A DNA stretch of 9,571 nucleotides from a virus (IMGVR_UViG_2703718868_000012:1-9571); one strand, 5' to 3'; positions 1-9,571 are shown, counted from the first letter of the stretch. Numbers and translations: made by a program. Notes: generated by a model from the letters alone, not told the origin.

Positions 1-1890
1 TCATAGTGAATCTGTCCCGCCTGATTTGACCATACCGCGATAATCCAGAGCTGCCACACCTGCATCAATACGGACTTTCCAGGCCACGCCGTCAACGATA
101 AAACCTTCCTGCTGTTCAAGGTAAGGCTCGTCATTGCCATCAAGATAAGCCACCTCGATTGTGTCCGTTCCCTGTGCGGAAAGCATGTACCATTGTTTTT
201 CGCTGATATCATCAAGGCGGGGATCGACGATGATATCAAGTAGCTTGTGATACGGGTTAAAGATCCCGCTGTTTTTATCAGCCCCGAAAGGTGCGGTTGA
301 GTTAATCATCTGCAACGCGCGATCTTCCAGTGCTGCCGGAACTAAAAGGAATTTAGGCGCAATATTCAGCACTTCGCCATTTTTGTCCTTCTGTGTGCGC
401 ATCAGGTGACGTGCTGCACTAAGTCCCGGTGTTGTCAGTCCTGCTTCAATCAGGTTGCTGTGTTTTTTGTCAAACAGCGCTATTCCGTCAGAAAGTTTTA
501 CGTTGCCTGTAAGCACCAGATTAACCAGATTTCCCACCGTTCTTGATGCTGCACGGCCCATAGCCATTGGCACCGTTGATAACTGATCAAGGTCATCATT
601 GATTATCGCCTGGCGGGTAATACTGAAAATATTCCCGTAAGTAGCCAGCGCGATGGGTTCACCGCGATCGCTGGTGGTGATGTATTTATATTCTGCCCCT
701 TCCGGCACTTTGTTTAACGTTGAGAAGCCATTCATACCAACGCGGCGGGCTTCCCGGAAGTTTGAAAGGGAACCTTTTTTCGTCCACTGGCGGAATGTTT
801 CGCCGCTGTGCTCCCAGCCTGCAAGCACTGATTTTTCAGCGCCACCAGCAAGAATATCGGTAAAATCGCTGCTGCTGTGGGTGAATGCCGCGTTTACTAT
901 CTGCGAGCGTGTGCCGTAGCTGCCCGTGCTTATACCACGATGGGTTAATGATGCCTGTGCCATATCGAAAAGGCTCATCATGGCGTAAGGATTACCGCGT
1001 TCGGCCCGTTCGTGACCAAGACGCGCATTAAGCCCCTGGCGCATTGCATCGCCGGTTATGTTGCCGTTATCCGTGTACGCGTAGTAAAGATTTGCGGGGG
1101 TGGTTTTGTTTGTTGGCGTTGATTCTTTACCCATAGCGAGTAAAAGGCGTTCGCGTGCATTCTCAACGCTACATTCTGAATCAGCAAGACAACTTATAGC
1201 CAGGTCGTTATATCTTCCGTTGAACGTGCCAAACAATTCACGTATCCCGTTGAGTCGTTCCTGTTCTCCGCTGCCAGTTTTCTGGCTGATCATGTTTTTA
1301 ATATTTTCCGGCATATTTGAAAAATCTCCGATTCGTTTTGATTCAATTCGGGCCATTGCTGTAATCGCGGGTATAACCTCATCTGCGAAACCGTTAGCCT
1401 TACACTCATTGCCATCCATCCAGGTTTCCGCCTCCATCATGGCGGTGATTTCCTGTTTACTCCTGCCCGTTCTTCCGGCGTAGGTTTCTGCCATCGTGTC
1501 GCCCAGCTTGTCCATCAGGTCAGCAAAGCGGCGAACGTCGCCCGACACTCCGGCAGTAACACCACGGGGGGCATGTATCATCATCATCGCGTTTTCAGGC
1601 ATAACGATGTGATCGCCACACATGGCAATAAACGAGGCCATAGAAGCCGCCATGCCCTCAATGTGTACAATTTTCTTTGCCGGATGATTTTTCAGGGCGT
1701 TATAGATAGCCAGCCCTTCAAAGATGTCGCCACCAGGTGAATGGATGCGAAGATGGATTTCAGACGCATTACCACACGCGTTGATCTCGTCAGTAAGTGC
1801 CGATGCTTTTACACCGTACCCGCCGATCTCGTCATAAATGCGCACATAGACAACATCTGCCATAGCCTTAATGGAAAACCATGTTTTCAT
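1..1890 (-). CDS. Prohead serine protease (ClpP-like) - scaffold-like linker - HK97-fold major capsid protein, single 629-aa polypeptide
   Basis: ATG at 1890, TGA at 3-1. N-terminal ~170 aa carry ClpP-like motifs GMAASMASF (compare E. coli ClpP GQAASMGAF around the catalytic Ser) and MMMIHAPRG (ClpP MIHQP, catalytic His). Middle ~100 aa are charged and helical. C-terminal ~330 aa look like an HK97-family major capsid protein (...FNPYHKLLDIIVDPRLDD...). Confidence 0.85.
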   Translation of the reverse strand: MKTWFSIKAMADVVYVRIYDEIGGYGVKASALTDEINACGNASEIHLRIHSPGGDIFEGLAIYNALKNHPAKKIVHIEGMAASMASFIAMCGDHIVMPENAMMMIHAPRGVTAGVSGDVRRFADLMDKLGDTMAETYAGRTGRSKQEITAMMEAETWMDGNECKANGFADEVIPAITAMARIESKRIGDFSNMPENIKNMISQKTGSGEQERLNGIRELFGTFNGRYNDLAISCLADSECSVENARERLLLAMGKESTPTNKTTPANLYYAYTDNGNITGDAMRQGLNARLGHERAERGNPYAMMSLFDMAQASLTHRGISTGSYGTRSQIVNAAFTHSSSDFTDILAGGAEKSVLAGWEHSGETFRQWTKKGSLSNFREARRVGMNGFSTLNKVPEGAEYKYITTSDRGEPIALATYGNIFSITRQAIINDDLDQLSTVPMAMGRAASRTVGNLVNLVLTGNVKLSDGIALFDKKHSNLIEAGLTTPGLSAARHLMRTQKDKNGEVLNIAPKFLLVPAALEDRALQMINSTAPFGADKNSGIFNPYHKLLDIIVDPRLDDISEKQWYMLSAQGTDTIEVAYLDGNDEPYLEQQEGFIVDGVAWKVRIDAGVAALDYRGMVKSGGTDSL

Positions 1891-3223: not shown

Positions 3224-3271
3224 TTTTATTTTTACCCCCTCGTTTAAAAAGTTTTGAGTTGTGCCTCCCCT

Positions 3272-3498
3272 TGTCTACCTTATCTACCTTACTGGCCACC
3301 ATGCCAGTAATGGCGCGGCTTTCAGTGGGGTAGAGTGCTTTTATCCACTATCTACCCCGTATCTACCTCCCTGTCTGATTCAGGTAAAATCAGGTAGAGA
3401 GGGTAGATAGTAGGTAGACAGTAAAAAAAGGCTGTCTACCCAAGTTAATGTACTGAATTAAATGTATTTTTCTTTACTCAGGTAGACAGGGTAGACAG
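3272..3498. repeat. Iteron array, putative replication origin
   Basis: Eleven copies of the core GGTAGA / TCTACC. Plus-orientation TCTACC at 3274, 3283, 3351, 3362, 3435; reverse GGTAGA at 3329, 3393, 3402, 3413, 3481, 3490. Includes tandem GGTAGACAG x2 (3481-3498) and a 9-bp inverted pair GGTAGACAG (3413-3421) / CTGTCTACC (3432-3440). AT-rich stretch 3441-3480. Sits immediately 3' of the primase gene. Confidence 0.7.
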
Positions 3499-3511
3499 CC
3501 ATTGCAACAAA

Positions 3512-5266
3512 TTATAAAAACGCGTCGCAATCGTCTGTTGTTATTGCGTTAGTCTGCGTTACTCCTTTAACTTTCCGCGTAATATATTCATGTCCGTAAA
3601 CTTTCGCGGCTGGCTTCATAGCCTTGCCAAAGTCATTTACGTTTAGCGGTTTGCTCCTGCCTGCGTACGCCATAAACGCCAGATAGACGCGGTAAAGGCT
3701 GTTTCTGGTCGTGTACTTCACTGAATCGCCACCGCCGCCCATCATCAGGCCGCGTGCTTCCTCCAGAAAATTCAGGAACTGGCAAAACTCAATAACCGGA
3801 TCCGTCTGTTGCTTTATTGCCAGTGCTTCATCACCGTCACGCTGTTCCAGTAGTAAAGCCCGTGCCTTCTCAGGGTCGGTAAAGTTCGCCAGCAATCGGC
3901 GGATAATGACAGGGATTTCAGCCGCAATCTTTTCCGGTAGCTCCCTGTCTTTTTCGGCCTCACTGACGATATTGTCGAAACGGAAAATCACGCGACGACG
4001 TGCCACACCTCCGGCCCGTTCGGTGAATATCATCGGGTTATTGTTGGTCGCCAGCACCACCGCCCTGATTACAGCCGTGAAACGCTTTTCGTATTTCGGG
4101 TTAATTTCCACGGGGTCACCGCCCGTGATTTTCTTGATGCCCGTTCCTTCGCCTGTATATTTCGGCTGGTCAGCCAGGACGATAAGGCGACTCCCGACAA
4201 CCTGCGCACGTCCACCAGCATCATCAAGCGATGTCATTTCAGCGCTTACCGTGTTCTGTTTCCCTGCCAGAAGGCTGGCTATGTGTGTGAATGTACTTTT
4301 ACCGCTCCCGCCGTCTCCGGTGGCCTCAATAAACATCTGCCAGTCGTACCGGTTCGCCATAATCATGTACAGCGCGGCACATATCCGCATCATCTTGCGC
4401 GGGTCTTTTCCGGCTGCGTGCTCAAGCCATTTATGAAAGTTTGGCGCGTTATCGCGGATGTTCTCCCCTGGTGCTGGTGGCGTGTACTCAATACTGTTGT
4501 GCGTGGTGATCCAGTTCTCCGGCGTGTGCGGGGAAAATTCCCCCGTTTTCAGGTCAAGCGCACCATTGGCAAACGGCAGCAAATCGCCGGACGGCTCGCC
4601 CATTGGTTCGGCAATAACTTTTAACGCTTCCACGGCGTTATTGATTACGCGCTTGCTGAAAGTGGCCCTGTGCTCTGAATAGATCGCCACCATTTCGCGG
4701 CTAAGTTCCATTGTGCTGACCGGACACCATACCCCGCCGCGCCATACGTGAACGATTTCACTTTCAGGATGCACGCAAACGCCATCAAATCGTCCGGCAA
4801 GAAGTTGAGCGCGCTCACTGTCCGCCATCTGCGAAAGTTGCGCCTTTTGCTTTACAGGAAGCTCAATAACCAGCCCATCAGAAAGATTCTGGCGCTCACT
4901 GGCCAGATATTCGCGCCAGTTCTCCACCTTCTGACCGTGCATACCATCAGGGTAAAAATTTGCATCCTGTACGCCTGCCGCCGCCAGCTTCTGACCAATC
5001 GCCTTTATCATTACTGGCGCAAGATATCCGGCCCTGAATATGCGCACGGATTTTCTGCCTTCCGGCACAATTTGCAGCTTATCCAGTTCTGATAACTGCT
5101 GCTCCCCAAGCCACACAGGAGGCTCATTATCTCCGGCCATACGCGCGTCATGTTCCTGCCATTGTTTCGCGTGTGACCAGGCATCACTACCCGCAAAAAT
5201 AATGACTTCTGTTTCTTTGTGTTTTATGCCGCGTGGCTGCTGTTTTACGTTCGGTGCCAGTTTCAT
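3512..5266 (-). CDS. Phage/plasmid primase, P4 family (primase-helicase, D5-like NTPase)
   Basis: 584 aa. Walker A GDGGSGKST seen directly; a Walker B-like hydrophobic stretch ...LIVLAD... follows. Overall resemblance to the P4-alpha C-terminal / D5-type replicative primase-helicases of satellites. ATG at 5266 overlaps the upstream stop as ATGA; SD AGGGG ~8 nt upstream. Confidence 0.85.
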   Translation of the reverse strand: MKLAPNVKQQPRGIKHKETEVIIFAGSDAWSHAKQWQEHDARMAGDNEPPVWLGEQQLSELDKLQIVPEGRKSVRIFRAGYLAPVMIKAIGQKLAAAGVQDANFYPDGMHGQKVENWREYLASERQNLSDGLVIELPVKQKAQLSQMADSERAQLLAGRFDGVCVHPESEIVHVWRGGVWCPVSTMELSREMVAIYSEHRATFSKRVINNAVEALKVIAEPMGEPSGDLLPFANGALDLKTGEFSPHTPENWITTHNSIEYTPPAPGENIRDNAPNFHKWLEHAAGKDPRKMMRICAALYMIMANRYDWQMFIEATGDGGSGKSTFTHIASLLAGKQNTVSAEMTSLDDAGGRAQVVGSRLIVLADQPKYTGEGTGIKKITGGDPVEINPKYEKRFTAVIRAVVLATNNNPMIFTERAGGVARRRVIFRFDNIVSEAEKDRELPEKIAAEIPVIIRRLLANFTDPEKARALLLEQRDGDEALAIKQQTDPVIEFCQFLNFLEEARGLMMGGGGDSVKYTTRNSLYRVYLAFMAYAGRSKPLNVNDFGKAMKPAAKVYGHEYITRKVKGVTQTNAITTDDCDAFL

Positions 5267-5562
5267 TTTTTGCCCCTGAATCCGTTAATCATGTTTTTCA
5301 TCTTCTGAATATTGGCGCGTGCTTTCTCCCTGCTGGTGGGCACGTTACGCGGTACGGCCTGCACAAGAGAAAAATCACGCCGGAACTGATAAACAGGCAT
5401 CACGCAATCATATTCGTAACCTTCACGGCGGTAAGTTACGCACCGTCCCGCCACGCCCTTAATCATTACCGTGCCGCCGTACTGGTCGCGGTAAATATCA
5501 CCGCGCGTAAATTTAGGGTGAGTGTTGCCACTGGCAGTTAAGCCAGAATATTTAAATTTCAT
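5263..5562 (-). CDS. Hypothetical 99-aa protein, translationally coupled to the primase
   Basis: ATG at 5562, 5 nt after the upstream TAA; stop overlaps the primase ATG. Basic protein, no motif recognised. Confidence 0.5.
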   Translation of the reverse strand: MKFKYSGLTASGNTHPKFTRGDIYRDQYGGTVMIKGVAGRCVTYRREGYEYDCVMPVYQFRRDFSLVQAVPRNVPTSREKARANIQKMKNMINGFRGKK

Positions 5563-5567
5563 TATTT

Positions 5568-5801
5568 TTATTCTCCGGTGTGCTGTTCGTTATATCTGTC
5601 GTGCAATTGGTCTATTTCTTGCAGTTCCATTATTACAGGCTCAAGAAGCGTTATTAATGCCGTGGCAATTCTTGATTTTTGTTTGTCGCGTTCATTGTCG
5701 CCAAGTGTTTCAAGCCATATGCGCAATATTTCCAGCATGTTTTCACTGTGAGAAAGTGCAAGAAATGCGCGGTATATTGTTTCAAGATAAATATCACGCA
5801 T
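5568..5801 (-). CDS. Hypothetical 77-aa protein
   Basis: ATG at 5801 with a G-rich SD-like stretch (GGGGA) ~6 nt upstream; start sits 1 nt after the upstream stop (TAATATG). Predicted helical, acidic. Confidence 0.5.
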   Translation of the reverse strand: MRDIYLETIYRAFLALSHSENMLEILRIWLETLGDNERDKQKSRIATALITLLEPVIMELQEIDQLHDRYNEQHTGE

Positions 5802-5802
5802 A

Positions 5803-6024
5803 TTAATCCCCGTCCGTTGTTTTTCTTAAAACAGCTTCTGTCACGAAATCGGCATAGTTAGCGGCAATATCAAGAATATTTAGCCCTGTATCTCTGTGCT
5901 CATCAGTGCAAAGAAAGAAAAAAGCCACCCGCATAATTTCAGATATTAACGAAAGCGCATCAACCGCATCATCAGGAACGCCGGAAAATTCTTGTTTCAG
6001 GGAATTAAAACGATCATCACGCAT
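5803..6024 (-). CDS. Hypothetical 73-aa protein (start chosen at the internal ATG after the G8 tract)
   Basis: ATG at 6024 lies 2 nt after a G8 run that can act as SD, and overlaps the upstream gene's stop by 8 nt. The track start at 6072 would overlap the upstream gene by 56 nt with no RBS. Confidence 0.45.
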   Translation of the reverse strand: MRDDRFNSLKQEFSGVPDDAVDALSLISEIMRVAFFFLCTDEHRDTGLNILDIAANYADFVTEAVLRKTTDGD

Positions 6025-6238
6025 AACCCCCCCCATTTTCACAATCAGCAACAAGAATATTTTTAGCGTCATTCAGTGACCGCGTTGCGGTGTATCGGAT
6101 ACATTCCAGGGCGAATAGTGTGTATTCTTCCCGTCCTTCCTTTTGTGCAAGCTCTGCTGTGCATTCAATATCAATAAGCGCGTGCATCAGCGTAGTGAGT
6201 GCGGCAGCTGCTGCGTCCGGTGTGGTTTTATTGTGCAT
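6017..6238 (-). CDS. Hypothetical 73-aa protein
   Basis: ATG at 6238 preceded by AGGGGGA ~6 nt upstream. The track start at 6277 is a TTG without RBS support. The last codons (...ENGGGYA) run through the G8 tract. Confidence 0.45.
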   Translation of the reverse strand: MHNKTTPDAAAAALTTLMHALIDIECTAELAQKEGREEYTLFALECIRYTATRSLNDAKNILVADCENGGGYA

Positions 6239-6428
6239 AGGTTTCCCCCTGGCGAATACGGGCGGCGAATACCGCAATACAACCGGACGGGCAACGGCTA
6301 CGCGCTTCGCGTTCCGTCCAGGCGGTTACGTGGATGATTTGAGATTCTCCGGCACTCAGTGCCAGAAAACGCCACACAAAGGCCGTTTGTGTGTGTGCTA
6401 GTCGTGGGGTATGATTTACGGCAACCAT
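6228..6428 (-). CDS. Hypothetical 66-aa protein, first ORF of the small-ORF/primase operon
   Basis: ATG at 6428 with SD GAGAGGT ~6 nt upstream; ends 11 nt inside the next ORF in another frame. No motif recognised. Confidence 0.4.
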   Translation of the reverse strand: MVAVNHTPRLAHTQTAFVWRFLALSAGESQIIHVTAWTEREARSRCPSGCIAVFAARIRQGETYAQ

Positions 6429-6502
6429 AAATTTACCTCTCTATAGTGTTTGTGGTTAGACGCCCTGCATGTGTTCCAGCACTGTGGGGCGTTGTTTTTT
6501 GG

Positions 6503-6575
6503 TGCAAGTCACCTTGAAATCTAGGTTACTTTTAGGTGACTTGCACTTCAAGTCTTTTTTTATTTTTTTTTCTCC
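6503..6575. promoter_or_regulatory. Divergent control region: 12-bp perfect inverted repeat (operator-like) followed by a hairpin and long T-tract
   Basis: TGCAAGTCACCT (6503-6514) and AGGTGACTTGCA (6534-6545) are exact reverse complements, 19-bp spacer. Second hairpin GACTTG (6538-6543) / CAAGTC (6549-6554) is followed by T7-A-T9 (6555-6571). Lies between the divergent starts at 6428 (minus) and 6613 (plus). Confidence 0.45.
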
Positions 6576-6612
6576 GTATACTGAACACCACCTAACAGTA
6601 AGGAGAACAGAG

Positions 6613-6792
6613 ATGCCAACAGGTACAACCAACAACAAGTCACAACAAAAAACTGCTAGAGTACCTCTAGACGTTTTAAGCGAAATGAATTTGGTAAAAG
6701 AAGAAAACGAAACAGACGCACAATTTATCGTTACTGCCATGCGCGGCGAAATCAAACGCCGCCAGCGTCGCAAGGCCAAAGAATCAGAATAA
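6613..6792 (+). CDS. Small basic protein, possible ribbon-helix-helix DNA-binding regulator (59 aa)
   Basis: Canonical SD AAGGAG (6600-6605) 7 nt before the ATG at 6613. Sequence ...ARVPLDVLSEMNLVKEENETDAQFIVTAMRGEIKRRQRRK fits a beta-strand / helix / loop / helix RHH pattern with a basic tail. The first ~120 nt are markedly AT-rich. The longer track ORF from 6469 would translate the palindrome and T-tract. Confidence 0.55.
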   Translation: MPTGTTNNKSQQKTARVPLDVLSEMNLVKEENETDAQFIVTAMRGEIKRRQRRKAKESE

Positions 6793-6849
6793 TCACTATC
6801 AGCGCCGTGGTGTGAGGTACTACGGCGCATTGCTTTACAGGGCAGTATC

Positions 6850-7077
6850 ATGACCAACAACACACTATCACCAATACAAGACACGCAAACGCAAGATGAT
6901 GAAATCATCCGGCAAAGGCAGTCAGAAGCCTGCGCCAGACTTGAGGAAGAACTAACCAGAACAAAAATACCACCACCAGCGCCGCGCTTAGTGCCACCAG
7001 AAAAATTTGCCCTTGAAGATTTTGTCGATAAATACCCACGGCGGCTTAAATCCGGCAAAAACCGACCGCCAGGATGA
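6850..7077 (+). CDS. Hypothetical 75-aa protein (acidic, helical N-half, Pro-rich C-half)
   Basis: ATG at 6850 with a weak GGG SD ~7 nt upstream; reading frame looks protein-like. Preceded by hairpin GCGCCGT (6802-6808) / ACGGCGC (6822-6828). Confidence 0.4.
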   Translation: MTNNTLSPIQDTQTQDDEIIRQRQSEACARLEEELTRTKIPPPAPRLVPPEKFALEDFVDKYPRRLKSGKNRPPG

Positions 7078-7196
7078 GTGCACAAGACGGAACCATGAAA
7101 CGGATTATTCCGTTTCCGGGGCGTTTGTGTGTGTATAAAGAGTAAGCTATGCTCTTTTATAGCCATAATCGTTACCTCAATTAATGGTTTGGTTAG

Positions 7197-7238
7197 AAGC
7201 CCGTTGGTGTTCATAGCGCCAGCGGGCTTTGCTTTTTG
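7197..7238 (+). terminator. Rho-independent terminator ending the 6613-7077 transcription unit
   Basis: 11-bp stem AAGCCCGTTGG (7197-7207) / CCAGCGGGCTT (7219-7229) with one G-U pair, 11-nt loop, then a U-rich tail TTGCTTTTTGTG. Confidence 0.5.
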
Positions 7239-7248
7239 TGTTGATTGT

Positions 7249-7282
7249 ATGTAATGTGTCACCACGCATAAATACATTACAT
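7249..7282 (+). promoter_or_regulatory. 9-bp perfect inverted repeat, candidate operator just upstream of the Arc-like gene
   Basis: ATGTAATGT (7249-7257) and ACATTACAT (7274-7282) are exact reverse complements, 16-bp spacer. Preceded by a TTGATT -35-like hexamer (7241-7246); ends 15 nt before the GTG start. Confidence 0.35.
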
Positions 7283-7296
7283 GAGGTGTAATTAAC

Positions 7297-7476
7297 GTGT
7301 CAACACACAAAAACGAAAGGCGTGGTAATCCTCCGTTCCAGTTCCGTTTAGATCCTGACTTACGGGAAAAGATGGAAAAGGCACAACAACATGACGGCGA
7401 TGATTCTCTTGCTGCCTGGATAAAGCGAATAATCCGCAAAGAATTACAGCAACGCGGCATAGAACCCAAAGGGTAA
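7297..7476 (+). CDS. Arc-family ribbon-helix-helix DNA-binding protein (59 aa)
   Basis: GTG at 7297 with SD GAGGTG 8 nt upstream. PPFQFRLDPDLREKMEKAQQHDGDDSLAAWIKRIIRKEL matches the Arc repressor pattern (P22 Arc PQFNLRWPREVLDLVRKVAEENGRSVNSEIYQRV). Absent from the supplied track (GTG start, under 60 aa). Confidence 0.6.
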   Translation: MSTHKNERRGNPPFQFRLDPDLREKMEKAQQHDGDDSLAAWIKRIIRKELQQRGIEPKG

Positions 7477-7571
7477 TTACATTGCCCACCAGCCTGATAG
7501 CGGCTATCATTCCCGTGCTTATGTTTGGGATCACATACACATAAGGCGCAGCAGGTTAATTGTTCACAAGG

Positions 7572-7597
7572 GCGTTCCGGCAACGGGGCGCTTTTTG
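7572..7597 (+). terminator. Terminator-like hairpin plus T5 downstream of the Arc-like gene
   Basis: Stem GCGTTCC (7572-7578) / GGGGCGC (7585-7591) including G-U pairs, loop GGCAAC, then TTTTT. No U-tract on the opposite strand. Confidence 0.35.
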
Positions 7598-7626
7598 TTA
7601 TGTTCATCGTGTCAAGCCTCACACCA

Positions 7627-7833
7627 TTACGCAGCCGTTCCGCGTGCTTCCTGCTCACGTTCTTTCATCCATGCGATTACGTCTTCCTCATACCATCCGC
7701 GACGGCGTAAACCAACGCGAAAACCCTGCGGAAATTCTCCGGCGTTGATCATGCTTTGAAGCGTGCTGTCTGCCTTGATGTGGATAAGTTTTTTTACTTC
7801 CTGGCGAAAGATGACTTTTTTGATTGCTTCCAT
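7627..7833 (-). CDS. alpA: AlpA-family transcriptional regulator / excisionase-like protein (68 aa)
   Basis: ...IKADSTLQSMINAGEFPQGFRVGLRRRGWYEEDVIAWMKE matches the AlpA pattern (helix-turn-helix, then G.FP...LG.R...W...V..W). Sits near the integrase as in P4-like and PICI elements. Confidence 0.8.
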   Translation of the reverse strand: MEAIKKVIFRQEVKKLIHIKADSTLQSMINAGEFPQGFRVGLRRRGWYEEDVIAWMKEREQEARGTAA

Positions 7834-8329: not shown

Positions 8330-9571
8330 CTAAACGGCTCGGATACCCCTTTTACCACTGGCGAGGGTTACGCCCGTCGCCGCAGCCTCGACAAATTCGC
8401 CCCACCAGCGCATAAGCACCACGCGTTTTTCTATGTAGTTGCTCCGGTTGTATGCCCGTCTCACTTCGTTAGTGTCGACGTGGGCAAGTGCGGCCTCGAT
8501 TACGTCCGGCTCGAATCCTTCCTCGTTCGCTGCTGTACTGAATATGGCGCGTAATCCATGAGACACCAGCACGCCAGCGAACCCCATGCGTCGTAATGCT
8601 GCGTTTGCTGTCTGGCTGTTCATTGGCTGCCGTGGGTCTTTCAGACTCGGGAAAACATAATCGCGGTGGCGGCTGATTGGTTTCATGGCCTCCAGCACCG
8701 CCATAGCCTGACCGGAAAGTGGGATAACGTGATCCCTGCGCATCTTCATGCGTCCGGCGGGTATCGTCCAGCGTTGCGCGTCCAGGTCGATTTCATCCCA
8801 CCGCGTTGATGACGCTTCGGCGGGACGGGTTACGGTCAGTAACTGCCATTCAATCAGTAATCTGGTCTGCCGTTCTGTTGCCGATACTGATAAAGCCTGC
8901 ATAAGCTCCGGCAACTGTTCGGGGCGGATTGTTGGCATATGTTTTTTTACAGGGGAGGGGAACGCCTTACGCACATTCATAGCCGGATTGGCATCAATCA
9001 GCCCACTGTTGGCGGCGTAATCCATTACCTCATTAACGCGCTGTAAAACCCGTTTGAGTGTTTCCAGGTTGCCGCGCTCCTTGATGGGGGTAAGCACCTC
9101 AACGAACCTGCGAGCGGTCAGGGTGTCTATTGGGGTGTTGCCGATGAACGGGAATACATATTTATCCAGCGATCGCCAGATGTCTTTAATCGTGTTGGGG
9201 GCCAGATTCTGGCTGATTTTCACCTGGTACCATGCCGCCGCCACATTTTCGAACGTGTTCCCTTGTCTTCGGGCCTCTGCCTCTCGTTTTTTCTTCTCAT
9301 GGCCCTGCGGGTCAGTTCCGGCACTGATTAACGCTCTGTACTCGCTACGGCGTTTTCTGGCATCAGCCAGGGAAACATCATCAAGCGATCCAAAACTCAG
9401 CAATATTCTTTTTTTGTCCGATGGCCGGTAGTAGGAAAATCGCCAGAGTTTTGATCCGGACGGTTTGACCAGGAGAAAAAGCCCTCCGCCGTCCTGTAGG
9501 GTGTATTCCTTTTCCGCTGGTCTGGCTGCTTTGATCTGCACCGTGGTTAATGGGGGTGTTTTTCTCGCCAT
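8330..9571 (-). CDS. int: Site-specific tyrosine integrase, P4 / CP4-57 type
   Basis: 413 aa. N-terminus MARKTPPLTTVQIKAARPAEKEYTLQDGGGLFLLVKPSGSKLWRFSYY is typical of P4-family integrase arm-binding domains. C-terminal catalytic region carries HGLR... and ...RAYNRSNY (candidate His/Arg/Tyr residues). ATG is at the very last bases of the window, so upstream signals are unseen. Confidence 0.9.
   Translation of the reverse strand: MARKTPPLTTVQIKAARPAEKEYTLQDGGGLFLLVKPSGSKLWRFSYYRPSDKKRILLSFGSLDDVSLADARKRRSEYRALISAGTDPQGHEKKKREAEARRQGNTFENVAAAWYQVKISQNLAPNTIKDIWRSLDKYVFPFIGNTPIDTLTARRFVEVLTPIKERGNLETLKRVLQRVNEVMDYAANSGLIDANPAMNVRKAFPSPVKKHMPTIRPEQLPELMQALSVSATERQTRLLIEWQLLTVTRPAEASSTRWDEIDLDAQRWTIPAGRMKMRRDHVIPLSGQAMAVLEAMKPISRHRDYVFPSLKDPRQPMNSQTANAALRRMGFAGVLVSHGLRAIFSTAANEEGFEPDVIEAALAHVDTNEVRRAYNRSNYIEKRVVLMRWWGEFVEAAATGVTLASGKRGIRAV

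What the first reader, a model, noticed from the sequence alone, without database searches (positions are those of the whole stretch)
5263..6428. Operon of five very short overlapping ORFs feeding into the primase gene
Five ORFs of 66-99 codons are packed with 1-11 nt overlaps or gaps immediately upstream of the primase, each with its own SD-like sequence. In P4-type satellites the genes upstream of the primase include helper-derepression and interference factors, so these unannotatable small proteins are candidate helper-manipulation or anti-phage effectors. Alternatively, some may be pieces of a frameshifted larger gene.
Basis: partly seen in the sequence, partly recalled or inferred. Interest (0 to 1): 0.5.

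Follow-up and report, generated by a model that had tools for sequence, protein, structure and literature searches.

The report
Small early genes of a phage satellite
The five short genes are real and conserved: they form the front of the replication operon of an E. coli phage-parasitic island (a PICI, as in strain CFT073), led by a cell-division-inhibitor homologue, with two of the genes joined or separated by an unstable run of G bases.

Summary
Five minus-strand ORFs (66, 73, 73, 77 and 99 aa) are packed with 1-11 nt gaps or overlaps, and the last overlaps the 584-aa primase-family gene by 4 nt. All five are real genes: dN/dS is 0.34-0.41 against 0.8-1.6 in shifted frames, and the cassette occurs in 1440 of 5426 complete E. 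coli genomes.

The island is a PICI, not P4-type. The prototype EcCICFT073 carries the same cassette, with a 99% identical primase.

- **ORF1** is an Icd homologue (40% identical to P1 Icd across its FtsZ-inhibitory core).
- **ORF5** is DUF4222, a Tudor/KOW-like beta-barrel.
- **ORF2, ORF3 and ORF4** are helical proteins found only in Escherichia/Shigella islands and absent from deposited phage genomes.

ORF2 and ORF3 meet at a poly-G tract that varies from G7 to G11 among otherwise identical haplotypes. The window's G8 gives two coupled genes; G7 and G10 fuse them. Tract-less relatives show that two genes is the ancestral state.

A candidate cis-antisense RNA covers ORF1's ribosome-binding site.

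Functions are inferred, not shown. A preprint links an analogous cassette (Icd-like gene, small ORFs, primase) to phage-triggered cell death.

The parts
6228..6428 (-). ORF1: 66-aa Icd homologue, first gene of the operon.
   Evidence: NCBIfam NF033153 scores 63.4 bits against a cut-off of 25. It is 40% identical to P1 Icd over 55 aa (E=9e-8), covering P1 residues 8-60. dN/dS is 0.41.
6017..6238 (-). ORF2: 73-aa helical protein. It corresponds to the N-half of the fused 144-aa form. Its stop overlaps the ORF3 start.
   Evidence: Matches phrog_5146 and phrog_2512 positions 1-76. PGAP calls a 222-nt CDS in relatives. dN/dS is 0.34. Stand-alone homologues exist without a poly-G tract.
6027..6034 (-). 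Poly-G tract: G8 on the operon strand, C8 on the + strand. It lies at the ORF2/ORF3 junction, is variable in length, and occupies the SD position of ORF3.
   Evidence: Tract lengths in 80 IMG/VR loci are G7 x23, G8 x33, G9 x18, G10 x4, G11 x2. Identical +/-200-nt haplotypes differ in tract length. Other homopolymers in the same loci are invariant. Tract-less relatives have GGAGGTGGGG or GGAGGG at this position.
5803..6024 (-). ORF3: 73-aa helical protein. It corresponds to the C-half of the fused form.
   Evidence: Matches phrog_24341 from profile position 1 at Met17 of the long ORF. PGAP calls a 222-nt CDS. Stand-alone homologues start exactly at profile position 72. dN/dS is 0.34.
5568..5801 (-). 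ORF4: 77-aa protein found only in E. coli islands.
   Evidence: Matches phrog_2196 full length, 1e-39. 522 homologues, all from E. coli, all 77 aa, with no named fusion. dN/dS is 0.34.
5263..5562 (-). ORF5: 99-aa DUF4222 protein. Its stop overlaps the replication gene start (ATGA).
3512..5266 (-). 584-aa primase-family (pri-rep) gene, the downstream end of the operon stretch examined.
   Evidence: D5_N, DUF5906, Pox_D5 and TIGR01613 hits. 99% identical to the EcCICFT073 protein.
6502..6551 (-). Promoter and operator of the operon: -35 TTGAAG (6546-6551), a 17-nt spacer, -10 TAACCT (6523-6528), and a perfect 13-bp inverted repeat (6534-6546 and 6502-6514).
   Evidence: Read from the sequence. 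A conserved TTGACR -35 and island-specific repeats bracketing the -10 appear in 22 distinct leaders.
6421..6502 (+). Candidate cis-antisense RNA of about 80 nt, opposite ORF1's start codon, SD and leader. It has two stem-loops, an anti-SD loop, and a terminator hairpin with a U-run. A promoter-like TTGTGT (6387-6392), 17-nt spacer and TATGAT (6410-6415) lie upstream.
   Evidence: MFE is -30.4 kcal/mol with z = -4.6, against z = -2.0 for the sense strand. A terminator-like site lies at 6471-6492. The module is conserved in 25-32 distinct versions, with 2 compensatory pairs and strand-specific G.U pairs. The Rfam SymR match is sub-threshold only.
6613..6792 (+). Divergent 59-aa YlcI/YnfO-family gene, the candidate regulator of the operon promoter.
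   Evidence: NCBIfam NF041551 scores 61.7 bits against a cut-off of 30. It holds the same position in relatives and in EcCICFT073.

Best explanation
The five ORFs are genuine, translationally coupled genes. They make up the promoter-proximal part of the early/replication operon of a phage-inducible chromosomal island (PICI) of the EcCICFT073 family.

Shown:
- They are coding and under purifying selection.
- They recur as a cassette (Icd-like, variable small genes, DUF4222) directly upstream of three unrelated kinds of replication gene.
- They are essentially absent from deposited phage genomes.
- ORF1 is a homologue of phage P1 Icd across its FtsZ-inhibitory core.
- ORF2 and ORF3 meet at a poly-G tract whose length varies among otherwise identical haplotypes, so the locus alternates between two coupled genes (G8, G9, G11) and one fused gene (G7, G10).
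- Two genes is the ancestral state.

Inferred:
- When the helper phage induces the island, transcription starts at a weak sigma-70-type promoter whose island-specific repeats are bound by the divergently encoded YlcI/YnfO-type protein.
- ORF1 translation is held down by a cis-antisense RNA that covers its SD and start codon.
- As with icd-ant in P1, ORF1 translation opens the way for the tightly coupled downstream genes.
- Once made, ORF1 blocks host division through FtsZ.
- ORF2, ORF3 and ORF4 are exchangeable accessory proteins acting on helper or host.
- ORF5 assists or is co-produced with the replication protein.
- In split alleles ORF3 is made by re-initiation at its retained ATG, with the G-run serving as its SD.
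For: Anatomy and coupling.

Coding constraint.

Prevalence and annotation.

Identity with the experimentally studied PICI:
- EcCICFT073 carries the same cassette. Its primase is 99% identical, the small ORFs 74-88%, and its tract is G8.
- The PICI architecture, and AlpA as a helper-induced activator, come from PMC6092414 and the cf-PICI preprint.

Modularity:
- The downstream gene is a D5_N primase, a RepA/AAA_25 helicase or a DUF927 protein.
- An ORF2-type gene occurs without ORF3.
- An ORF3-type gene occurs after an unrelated gene.

Satellite specificity.

ORF1 as an Icd homologue:
-.
- P1 Icd binds FtsZ through a core at residues 12-51 (PMC11897509).
- The P1 record annotates icd as required for ant expression, and icd overlaps ant1 by 4 nt.

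Poly-G switch:
-.
- Interval lengths of 411, 412 and 413 nt, with one or two annotated CDSs, occur in complete genomes.

Two genes ancestral.

Linker position of the tract.

Leader, operator and antisense RNA.
Against: - There are no expression, translation or phenotype data for this cassette.
- ORF1 is only 40% identical to P1 Icd, and FtsZ binding is untested.
- ORF2, ORF3 and ORF4 have no functional homologue. The ORF2-3 structure model is low-confidence (pLDDT 51).
- The ORF5 fold is generic, with no significant match.
- The AlpA-like gene scores below Pfam's cut-off (17.8 versus 21 bits).
- The promoter hexamers are too weak for the consensus scan.
- The antisense RNA rests on structure, conservation and a sub-threshold Rfam match (25.9 versus 61 bits). 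Its promoter lies inside conserved coding sequence, so that conservation is ambiguous.
- Some of the tract-length variation could be assembly error.
- About one third of the IMG/VR copies are in frame, which fits no selection on frame at all.
Confidence: 0.7

Rival explanations
1. The cassette is primarily an abortive-infection or programmed-cell-death module. A phage-encoded trigger activates it, and the Icd-like protein, together with the small ORFs and the primase, kills or arrests the cell. This protects the population or excludes superinfecting phage. This reading is not exclusive of the best explanation.
For: Silas et al. (bioRxiv 10.1101/2023.04.06.535777) studied E. coli ECOR61.
- Phage accessory gene orf24 triggers cell death.
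- Tn5 suppressor insertions hit an Icd-like gene and two overlapping small hypothetical genes directly downstream.
- Removing the Icd-like gene abolished it.

The architecture is the same as here. Relatives of this cassette carry Icd-like proteins with long N-terminal extensions, as that paper describes. AlpA-driven induction of EcCICFT073 reduces cell viability (PMC6092414).
Against: - The ECOR61 genes differ in size (121, 61 and 63 aa, against 66, 73, 73, 77 and 99 aa). I could not fetch their sequences, so homology beyond Icd is unverified.
- No PADLOC defence family matches any of the five proteins.
- The toxicity could be a by-product of satellite induction rather than a selected defence function.
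- The reconstituted effect was described as muted.
Confidence: 0.3
2. ORF2 and ORF3 are really one gene. The fused 144-aa protein is the functional form, and the window's G8 allele is a frameshifted, phase-OFF or decaying copy.
For: - Fused 144-151 aa proteins are common. P0023 occurs on 258 contigs, P0033 on 152 and P0048 on 212.
- phrog_2512 is a 154-position fused profile.
- Fusions arise by at least four routes, including G8 with a compensating 1-nt T deletion. This could reflect selection for the fusion.
- A Shigella copy has G8 plus a second frameshift in ORF3.
Against: - Divergent relatives without any poly-G tract have two separate genes with the same 8-nt stop/start overlap and an ordinary SD.
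- ORF2-type and ORF3-type genes occur independently of each other.
- On one haplotype the split alleles outnumber the fused by at least 5 to 1: at least 1000 contigs each for G8 and G9, against 258 and 152.
- The functional, transferable EcCICFT073 carries G8.
- The ORF3 ATG is invariant even in fused proteins.
- The tract falls in a low-confidence linker between two helical hairpins.
- ORF3 has dN/dS of 0.34 although most copies are split.
Confidence: 0.12
3. The poly-G length differences are homopolymer sequencing or assembly errors, not biological variation.
For: Homopolymers are error-prone on several platforms. Many IMG/VR entries come from older draft genomes. The length distribution is unimodal around 8.
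Against: - A/T homopolymers of 6-8 nt in the same contigs are essentially invariant: 29/29, 40/40 and 15/16.
- Each length class is represented by hundreds to over a thousand independent contigs from several sources.
- Complete RefSeq genomes show G8, G9 and G10, with matching PGAP gene calls.
- A distinct G8-minus-T allele recurs in independent assemblies.
- There was no G/C homopolymer of similar length to use as a like-for-like control.
Confidence: 0.06
4. The small proteins are helper-derepression factors analogous to P4 epsilon, inducing a resident helper prophage.
For: - The genes sit just upstream of the replication gene in a satellite.
- In relatives the ORF1 slot is occupied by Ash-family proteins, whose C-terminus aligns with ORF1 (phrog_29966).
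- One paper glosses ash as a helper-prophage derepressor (PMC13612085).
- In P1, icd precedes the antirepressor genes ant1 and ant2.
Against: - No sequence or fold similarity to any antirepressor was found.
- In Gram-negative PICIs the helper induces the island through AlpA, not the reverse (PMC6092414).
- The element is not P4-like.
Confidence: 0.08

Closest known systems
Early region of the prototypical Gram-negative PICI EcCICFT073 (E. coli CFT073, NC_004431.1 1377930-1388654)
   Same: The gene order is the same: int, AlpA-type HTH, divergent YlcI/YnfO, Icd-like, ORF2 (73 aa, G8), ORF3 (73 aa), ORF4 (77 aa), DUF4222 (99 aa), a 584-aa primase-family protein (99% identical), an 85-aa protein (96% identical) and SSB.
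   Different: - EcCICFT073 has one extra 76-aa gene between Icd and ORF2.
- The small ORFs are only 74-88% identical, Icd 45%, and AlpA and integrase about 25%, so the two islands are mosaic relatives.
- The window has a ClpP-protease/capsid fusion gene, where CFT073 has separate capsid and decoration genes.
- The papers I read do not characterise the small genes.
Phage P1 immI operon (c4 RNA, icd, ant1/ant2)
   Same: An Icd protein is the first, translationally coupled ORF of an operon. A small RNA targeting the icd ribosome-binding region controls it (P1 record annotation). ORF1 is a true Icd homologue.
   Different: - P1's C4 RNA is encoded upstream on the same strand and acts in trans. Here the candidate RNA is cis-antisense, and no Rfam C4 match was found.
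- The downstream genes here are unrelated to ant.
- The element is a satellite, not a plasmid prophage.
ECOR61 'prophage-encoded superinfection exclusion/PCD system' (Silas et al., bioRxiv 10.1101/2023.04.06.535777)
   Same: It has an Icd-like gene followed by overlapping small hypothetical genes and a DNA primase. All are required for the phenotype, and Icd-like is the likely effector.
   Different: The gene sizes differ and the Icd-like protein has an N-terminal extension. Homology of the small genes to ORF2, ORF3 or ORF4 is unverified. The system was not described there as a PICI.
P4 satellite left operon (genes upstream of the alpha primase, including epsilon)
   Same: It is a satellite with small early genes upstream of a primase-helicase of the D5/P4 family. 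Icd-like and AlpA genes are also found in P4-like elements (ECOR15 entry).
   Different: No psu, delta or sid genes are seen here. The window's island encodes its own capsid protein. The PICI literature treats P4 as a separate lineage with only distant homology in AlpA, Pri-Rep and Int.
Simple-sequence contingency loci (homopolymer-mediated phase variation, e.g. in Neisseria and Haemophilus; NeuO of the E. coli CUS-3 prophage)
   Same: A homopolymeric tract inside coding sequence changes length faster than point substitutions accumulate, and each change shifts the reading frame.
   Different: The switch is not ON/OFF. Every state leaves both halves potentially translatable, either as two coupled genes or as one fusion. 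The tract doubles as the downstream gene's SD. Reversible switching within a clone has not been shown.
SymE/SymR-type cis-antisense control of a toxic protein
   Same: A short, structured RNA is encoded opposite the 5' UTR, SD and start codon of a potentially toxic small protein. Rfam gives a weak SymR-like match at exactly this place.
   Different: The score is far below the family threshold (25.9 versus 61 bits). ORF1 is unrelated to SymE. Expression of the RNA has not been shown.

Membership tests
Gram-negative PICI (EcCICFT073 type) | A tyrosine integrase at one end. | tested here: met
   The 8330-9571 (-) product has Arm-DNA-bind_3, Phage_int_M and Phage_integrase domains.
Gram-negative PICI (EcCICFT073 type) | An AlpA-family regulator next to int. 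| tested here: inconclusive
   The 7627-7833 (-) product scores 17.8 bits on Phage_AlpA, below the 21-bit cut-off. PHROG excisionase/regulator families match at 1e-7. PGAP calls the equivalent gene an HTH regulator.
Gram-negative PICI (EcCICFT073 type) | A pri-rep replication gene downstream, in the same orientation. | tested here: met
   The 3512-5266 (-) product has D5_N, DUF5906 and TIGR01613 hits and is 99% identical to the EcCICFT073 protein.
Gram-negative PICI (EcCICFT073 type) | A packaging or capsid module, with no tail or lysis genes. | tested here: inconclusive
   A ClpP-like prohead protease/major-capsid fusion lies at 1-1890. The window ends there, so the rest of the module, and the absence of tail genes, cannot be seen.
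Gram-negative PICI (EcCICFT073 type) | Induction, replication and transfer that depend on a helper phage. | not testable with these tools
   Shown experimentally for EcCICFT073 (PMC6092414), not for this island.
P4-like satellite | The core genes psu, delta and sid, with capsids built from helper protein. | tested here: not met
   None of the window's ORFs scanned against Pfam, NCBIfam or PHROGs matched Psu, Delta or Sid. The island encodes its own capsid protein. The test is limited to the 9.6-kb window.
Icd (phage P1 cell-division inhibitor) family | Sequence membership: the domain model, and direct similarity to P1 Icd across the functional core (residues 12-51). | tested here: met
   NF033153 scores 63.4 bits against a cut-off of 25. 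BLASTP against P1 Icd gives 40% identity, E=9e-8, over P1 residues 8-60. The core is defined in PMC11897509.
Icd (phage P1 cell-division inhibitor) family | Binds FtsZ and blocks Z-ring formation. | not testable with these tools
   This needs expression, microscopy and two-hybrid experiments.
DUF4222 (Pfam PF13973) | A match above the gathering threshold. | tested here: met
   ORF5 scores 82.2 bits against a cut-off of 27, covering profile positions 1-53 of 53.
Simple-sequence contingency locus | Tract length is polymorphic among otherwise identical sequences, and each change shifts the reading frame. | tested here: met
Simple-sequence contingency locus | Reversible, high-frequency switching within a clonal population, with a phenotypic consequence. 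| not testable with these tools
   This needs deep amplicon sequencing and phenotyping.
SymR antisense RNA (Rfam RF01809) | A covariance-model score at or above the gathering threshold. | tested here: not met
   25.9 bits against 61, E=0.17. The resemblance is functional and architectural only.
C4 antisense RNA (P1/P7 immI) | An Rfam match upstream of icd. | tested here: not met
   No C4 match anywhere in the window at E of 1 or below.
Known anti-phage defence systems (PADLOC-DB v2) | Any of the five proteins matching a defence-system model. | tested here: not met
   No families matched at E of 0.1 or below.

The most novel reading that the evidence does not exclude
The Icd-led cassette is a satellite-borne decision module.
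- A cis-antisense RNA keeps a division-inhibiting toxin (ORF1), and through translational coupling the whole early/replication operon, silent until a phage cue arrives.
- The ORF2/ORF3 poly-G tract acts as a contingency locus. Within a clonal population it diversifies the accessory proteins between two separate polypeptides and one fused polypeptide, and so alters which phages are sensed, exploited or aborted.
Probability: 0.15. Interest if true: 0.7.

Novelty: new member of a known kind. Interest (0 to 1): 0.42.

Why it matters
These islands are in about a quarter of complete E. coli genomes, and they shape phage-host dynamics and gene transfer. Even so, the genes between the regulator and the replication gene have not been studied in the papers I could read.

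This work gives concrete, testable handles.

- An Icd homologue may explain why island induction harms the host. It also links PICIs to a published cell-death phenotype.
- The hypervariable G-tract toggles two genes into one in the model island EcCICFT073.
- A candidate antisense RNA and an operator/regulator pair may form an unrecognised control layer. [quoted passage not shown]

If confirmed, these features would refine the model of how Gram-negative PICIs are kept silent and switched on.

Tried and rejected
1. **Tandem paralogues.** I tested whether ORF2, ORF3 and ORF4 are paralogous repeats of one helical unit. hhalign probabilities were 1% or lower for all pairs, so I rejected this.

2. 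**Known RNA families.** Rfam gave nothing at gathering scores. At E of 1 or below there was only a weak SymR-like hit and a chance miRNA hit.

3. **Defence families.** PADLOC gave none.

4. **Solved structures by sequence.** None were found, apart from one chance hit at E=0.087.

5. **Homologues in deposited phage genomes.**
   - DNA search found none.
   - Protein searches found none for ORF2-3 and ORF4.
   - ORF1 and ORF5 each had a single hit, in satellite-sized records.

6. **ORF2-3 structure.** The fused-protein prediction had pLDDT 51. I used it only for secondary structure and did not submit it to fold search.

8. **Cross-species scan.** The genome-per-species scan with the ORF2-3 alignment found only a decaying Shigella copy.

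9. **Informative domain fusions.** Among 50 representative clusters the longer hits had no Pfam domains. They look like read-through or miscalled ORFs.

10. **P4-type classification.** Rejected (see the membership test).

11. **ECOR61 contig.** QOYT01000045.1 could not be retrieved with the tools, so that link stays architectural.

12. **Literature on homopolymer switches in PICIs.** Nothing found.

Full report
**1. Observation**

The five ORFs exist on the minus strand at the stated coordinates.

| Gene | Coordinates | Size | Junction with next gene |
|---|---|---|---|
| ORF1 | 6228-6428 | 66 aa | 11-nt overlap |
| ORF2 | 6017-6238 (from ATG) | 73 aa | 8-nt overlap (ATGCGTGA) |
| ORF3 | 5803-6024 (from ATG) | 73 aa | 1-nt gap |
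| ORF4 | 5568-5801 | 77 aa | 5-nt gap |
| ORF5 | 5263-5562 | 99 aa | 4-nt overlap (ATGA) |
| primase-family gene | 3512-5266 | 584 aa | - |

Each start has a purine-rich SD-like element upstream. NCBI's pipeline calls the same five CDSs in related E. coli genomes.

**2. They are real genes**

- The cassette is found in 1440 of 5426 complete E. coli genomes.
- I collected 88 copies of the locus (the window plus 87 related loci), most through a junction pattern in IMG/VR. All five frames recur at protein identities down to 34-48%. Only one high-scoring alignment contained a stop.
- Pooled Nei-Gojobori comparisons give dN/dS of 0.34-0.41 for each ORF. The two shifted frames of the same DNA give pN/pS of 0.78-1.63.

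**3. What the element is**

The window's genes:
- a tyrosine integrase (8330-9571)
- an AlpA-like HTH gene (7627-7833)
- small divergent YlcI/YnfO-type genes
- the cassette
- the primase-family gene
- an 85-aa gene
- SSB (2547-2969)
- a ClpP-like prohead protease/major-capsid fusion (1-1890)

This is the layout of Gram-negative phage-inducible chromosomal islands. In those islands a helper phage induces AlpA, and AlpA activates the island. P4 is described as a separate lineage (PMC6092414; cf-PICI preprint).

The prototypical island EcCICFT073 carries the same cassette in the same place. Identity to the window is mosaic.

| Gene | Identity to EcCICFT073 |
|---|---|
| primase-family protein | 99% |
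| 85-aa gene | 96% |
| ORF2 | 88% |
| ORF4 | 86% |
| ORF5 | 82% |
| ORF3 | 74% |
| SSB | 74% |
| Icd-like (ORF1) | 45% |
| integrase | 25% |
| AlpA | 24% |

None of the PICI papers I read characterise these small genes.

**4. The cassette is a mobile module**

- The same small genes sit upstream of three kinds of replication gene: a D5_N primase-family gene, an unrelated RepA/AAA_25 helicase and a DUF927 protein.
- DUF4222 directly precedes the replication gene in every related island whose gene table I inspected.
- The five proteins are essentially absent from 50,697 deposited phage genomes. The only hits are in two satellite-sized records.
- They are not detectable paralogues of one another.

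**5. Individual proteins**

*ORF1*
- It matches the NCBIfam Icd-like domain at 63 bits against a cut-off of 25.
- It aligns with phage P1 Icd at 40% identity over 55 residues, E=9e-8. The alignment spans the region (residues 12-51) reported to be sufficient to bind FtsZ and block division (PMC11897509).
- In P1, icd is the first ORF of the immI operon and overlaps ant1 by 4 nt. The record annotates it as required for ant expression and as controlled by C4 RNA at its ribosome-binding site.

*ORF5*
- It is Pfam DUF4222.
- The model has a core pLDDT of about 89. It is a five-stranded Tudor/KOW/SH3-like barrel plus a long basic C-terminal helix.
- The best fold matches are Spt5 KOW domains, UvrD/PcrA Tudor domains and DUF1653. 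None is significant enough to assign a function.

*ORF4*
- It is a 77-aa protein seen only in E. coli, and is very abundant.

*ORF2 and ORF3*
- They belong to a tiny family. Only 50 clusters among 1.84 billion representatives match.
- No PADLOC defence model matches any of the five proteins.

**6. The ORF2/ORF3 junction**

ORF2 and ORF3 match consecutive halves of one 154-position PHROG. They meet at a G8 run (C8 on the + strand, 6027-6034).

Fused 144-151 aa proteins are common in E. coli. They read GGV or GGGV at the junction on otherwise identical backgrounds.

| Tract length | IMG/VR loci (n=80) | Result |
|---|---|---|
| G7 | 23 | fused |
| G8 | 33 | split; ORF2 ends GGGYA* |
| G9 | 18 | split; ORF2 ends GGGLCVMIVLIP* |
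| G10 | 4 | fused |
| G11 | 2 | split |

Evidence that the variation is real:
- Loci with identical +/-200-nt flanks carry different lengths.
- A/T homopolymers of 6-8 nt in the same contigs are essentially invariant.
- On one haplotype the exact proteins were seen on at least 1000 contigs for G8, at least 1000 for G9, 258 for G7 and 152 for G10.
- Complete genomes show matched intervals of 411, 412 and 413 nt, with two or one annotated CDS accordingly.
- A further allele, G8 followed by one T instead of two, also restores the fusion.

So the tract is a genuine mutational hot spot.

**7. Which state is ancestral**

- Many divergent representatives are stand-alone N-halves, or stand-alone C-halves that begin exactly at the Met after the tract.
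- Tract-less N-halves end ...ADIQEVGHA*.
- In locus L090 an ORF2-type gene is followed directly by an ORF4-type gene. The junction is CAGGAGGTGGGGCATGCATAA: a normal SD plus an 8-nt overlap.
- In L091 an ORF3-type gene follows an unrelated 69-aa gene, with GGAGGG and ATGTATGA at the junction.

Two independent, translationally coupled genes are therefore ancestral. The poly-G tract occupies the SD position of ORF3. The window's G8 allele reproduces the ancestral 8-nt overlap, and fusions are derived.

The low-confidence model of the fused protein places the tract-encoded glycines at the start of a poorly predicted linker between two helical hairpins. This fits two separable modules. EcCICFT073, which is functional, also has G8.

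**8. Control region (outside the stated coordinates but part of the operon)**

Upstream of ORF1:
- -35 TTGAAG (6546-6551), a 17-nt spacer, and -10 TAACCT (6523-6528)
- a perfect 13-bp inverted repeat (6534-6546 and 6502-6514)

Across 22 distinct leaders the -35 is conserved, while island-specific repeats bracket the -10. Next to it lies a divergent YlcI/YnfO-family gene (6613-6792). This looks like a repressor/operator pair.

Between the promoter and ORF1, the + strand (antisense) folds into two stem-loops with MFE -30.4 kcal/mol and z = -4.6. The sense strand gives z = -2.0.
- The first loop exposes CCUCUC, the complement of ORF1's SD.
- The second is a terminator-like hairpin with a U-run.
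- A TTGTGT-N17-TATGAT promoter-like element lies at the right distance upstream.
- The module is conserved in 25-32 distinct versions. It has two compensatory pairs and several G.U pairs that would be mismatches on the sense strand.
- Rfam gives only a sub-threshold SymR-like match there.

I regard an antisense RNA of about 80 nt as a reasonable but unproven inference, at about even odds.

**9. Mechanism**

*Shown*
- This is a conserved, coupled, satellite-specific operon front end.
- It is led by an Icd homologue.
- It has a slippage-prone junction.

*Inferred*
- On induction, transcription from the repressor-controlled promoter yields ORF1. The antisense RNA limits its translation.
- As in P1 icd-ant, ORF1 translation probably gates the tightly coupled genes behind it.
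- ORF1 would arrest host division through FtsZ.
- ORF2, ORF3 and ORF4 are exchangeable accessory proteins with unknown targets.
- ORF5 is co-translated with the replication protein.

*The closest functional data*
- A preprint reports an Icd-like gene, two overlapping small genes and a primase, six linked genes in all, that are needed for cell death triggered by a phage accessory protein in E. coli ECOR61.
- The architecture matches. The gene sizes differ, and I could not fetch that contig.
- The defence/cell-death reading therefore stays a non-exclusive rival at about 0.3.

**10. Verdict**

The finding is real and correctly delimited, but it is a widespread, already catalogued part of a known class of element. 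It is a PICI, not P4-type. Two of the five proteins belong to named families.

What this analysis adds:
- the link to EcCICFT073
- the demonstration of coding constraint
- the Icd homology across the functional core
- the poly-G fuse/split polymorphism and its evolutionary direction
- a candidate operator/regulator pair and antisense RNA

Novelty is "new member of a known kind". Interest is moderate (0.42).

Noticed in passing
window 6421-6502 (+); promoter-like elements at 6387-6392 and 6410-6415 (+): A candidate cis-antisense RNA of about 80 nt lies opposite the SD and start codon of the Icd-like ORF1. It has two stem-loops (z = -4.6), an anti-SD loop and a terminator with a U-run. It is conserved with compensatory and G.U-specific pairs in 25-32 versions. 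The Rfam SymR match is sub-threshold only.
   Followed up: partly
window ~7150-7240 (+) and 7167 downward (-): A second copy of the same antisense/leader module is present; the strong + strand terminator-like hairpin at 7196-7230 belongs to it. It sits next to a truncated Icd/Ash-like N-terminus (MAIKEHSLLFIHTQT...). The 400-aa ORF at 6456-7658 (-) that runs through it looks spurious, because it is antisense to three small + strand genes. PGAP annotates an incomplete Icd-like pseudogene at the equivalent place in L003.
   Followed up: partly
window 6502-6551 (-) and 6613-6792 (+): A perfect 13-bp inverted repeat (GTGCAAGTCACCT-N19-AGGTGACTTGCAC) overlaps the operon's -35/-10 region, next to a divergent YlcI/YnfO-family gene. 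In relatives the repeats differ from island to island while the -35 is conserved. This suggests an immunity-like repressor/operator pair in a PICI class for which the 2018 paper says a global repressor is unclear.
   Followed up: partly
window 3269-3503: A dense array of 8-10-nt iteron-like repeats (TATCTACC/TGTCTACC and their complements, at least 10 copies in both orientations) and a 47-nt imperfect palindrome lie just downstream of the primase-family gene. This is where PICIs are reported to place their replication origin. The Rfam mir-3927 hit here is a chance match to the palindrome.
   Followed up: partly
window 1-1890 (-): A ClpP-like prohead protease/major-capsid fusion protein (NF045540, 891 bits) is encoded here, so the island builds its own capsid shell (cf-PICI-like). 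The otherwise closely related EcCICFT073 instead has separate capsid and head-decoration genes. The packaging module has been swapped while the replication gene is 99% identical.
   Followed up: partly
window 3512-6428 versus L093 (EcCICFT073): Identity drops sharply at the ORF5/primase boundary: the primase is 99% identical, ORF5 82%, ORF3 74% and Icd 45%. This implies recombination break-points at gene junctions, or much faster evolution of the small genes.
   Followed up: no
L093 9050-9280; proteins P0079, P0082, P0114: EcCICFT073 has an extra 76-aa gene between Icd and ORF2. In some assemblies it is fused to ORF2-3, giving 217-220-aa proteins. This is a second fuse/split junction in the same cassette, and its cause was not examined.
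   Followed up: no
L092 15192-15431 (CFT073 lambdoid prophage): A 79-aa DUF4222 gene lies next to the excisionase in the early-left region of a lambdoid prophage. DUF4222 is therefore not restricted to satellites or to positions next to replication genes.
   Followed up: no
L089 ~4204 and downstream (Shigella flexneri): The only non-E. coli species representative found with an ORF2-3 relative has G8 plus an additional 1-nt frameshift inside ORF3. That copy appears to be decaying.
   Followed up: partly
L091 4547-5059: A related island with a DUF927-type replication gene encodes a ProQ/FinO-family RNA chaperone downstream. This may be relevant if the leader is controlled by RNA.
   Followed up: no
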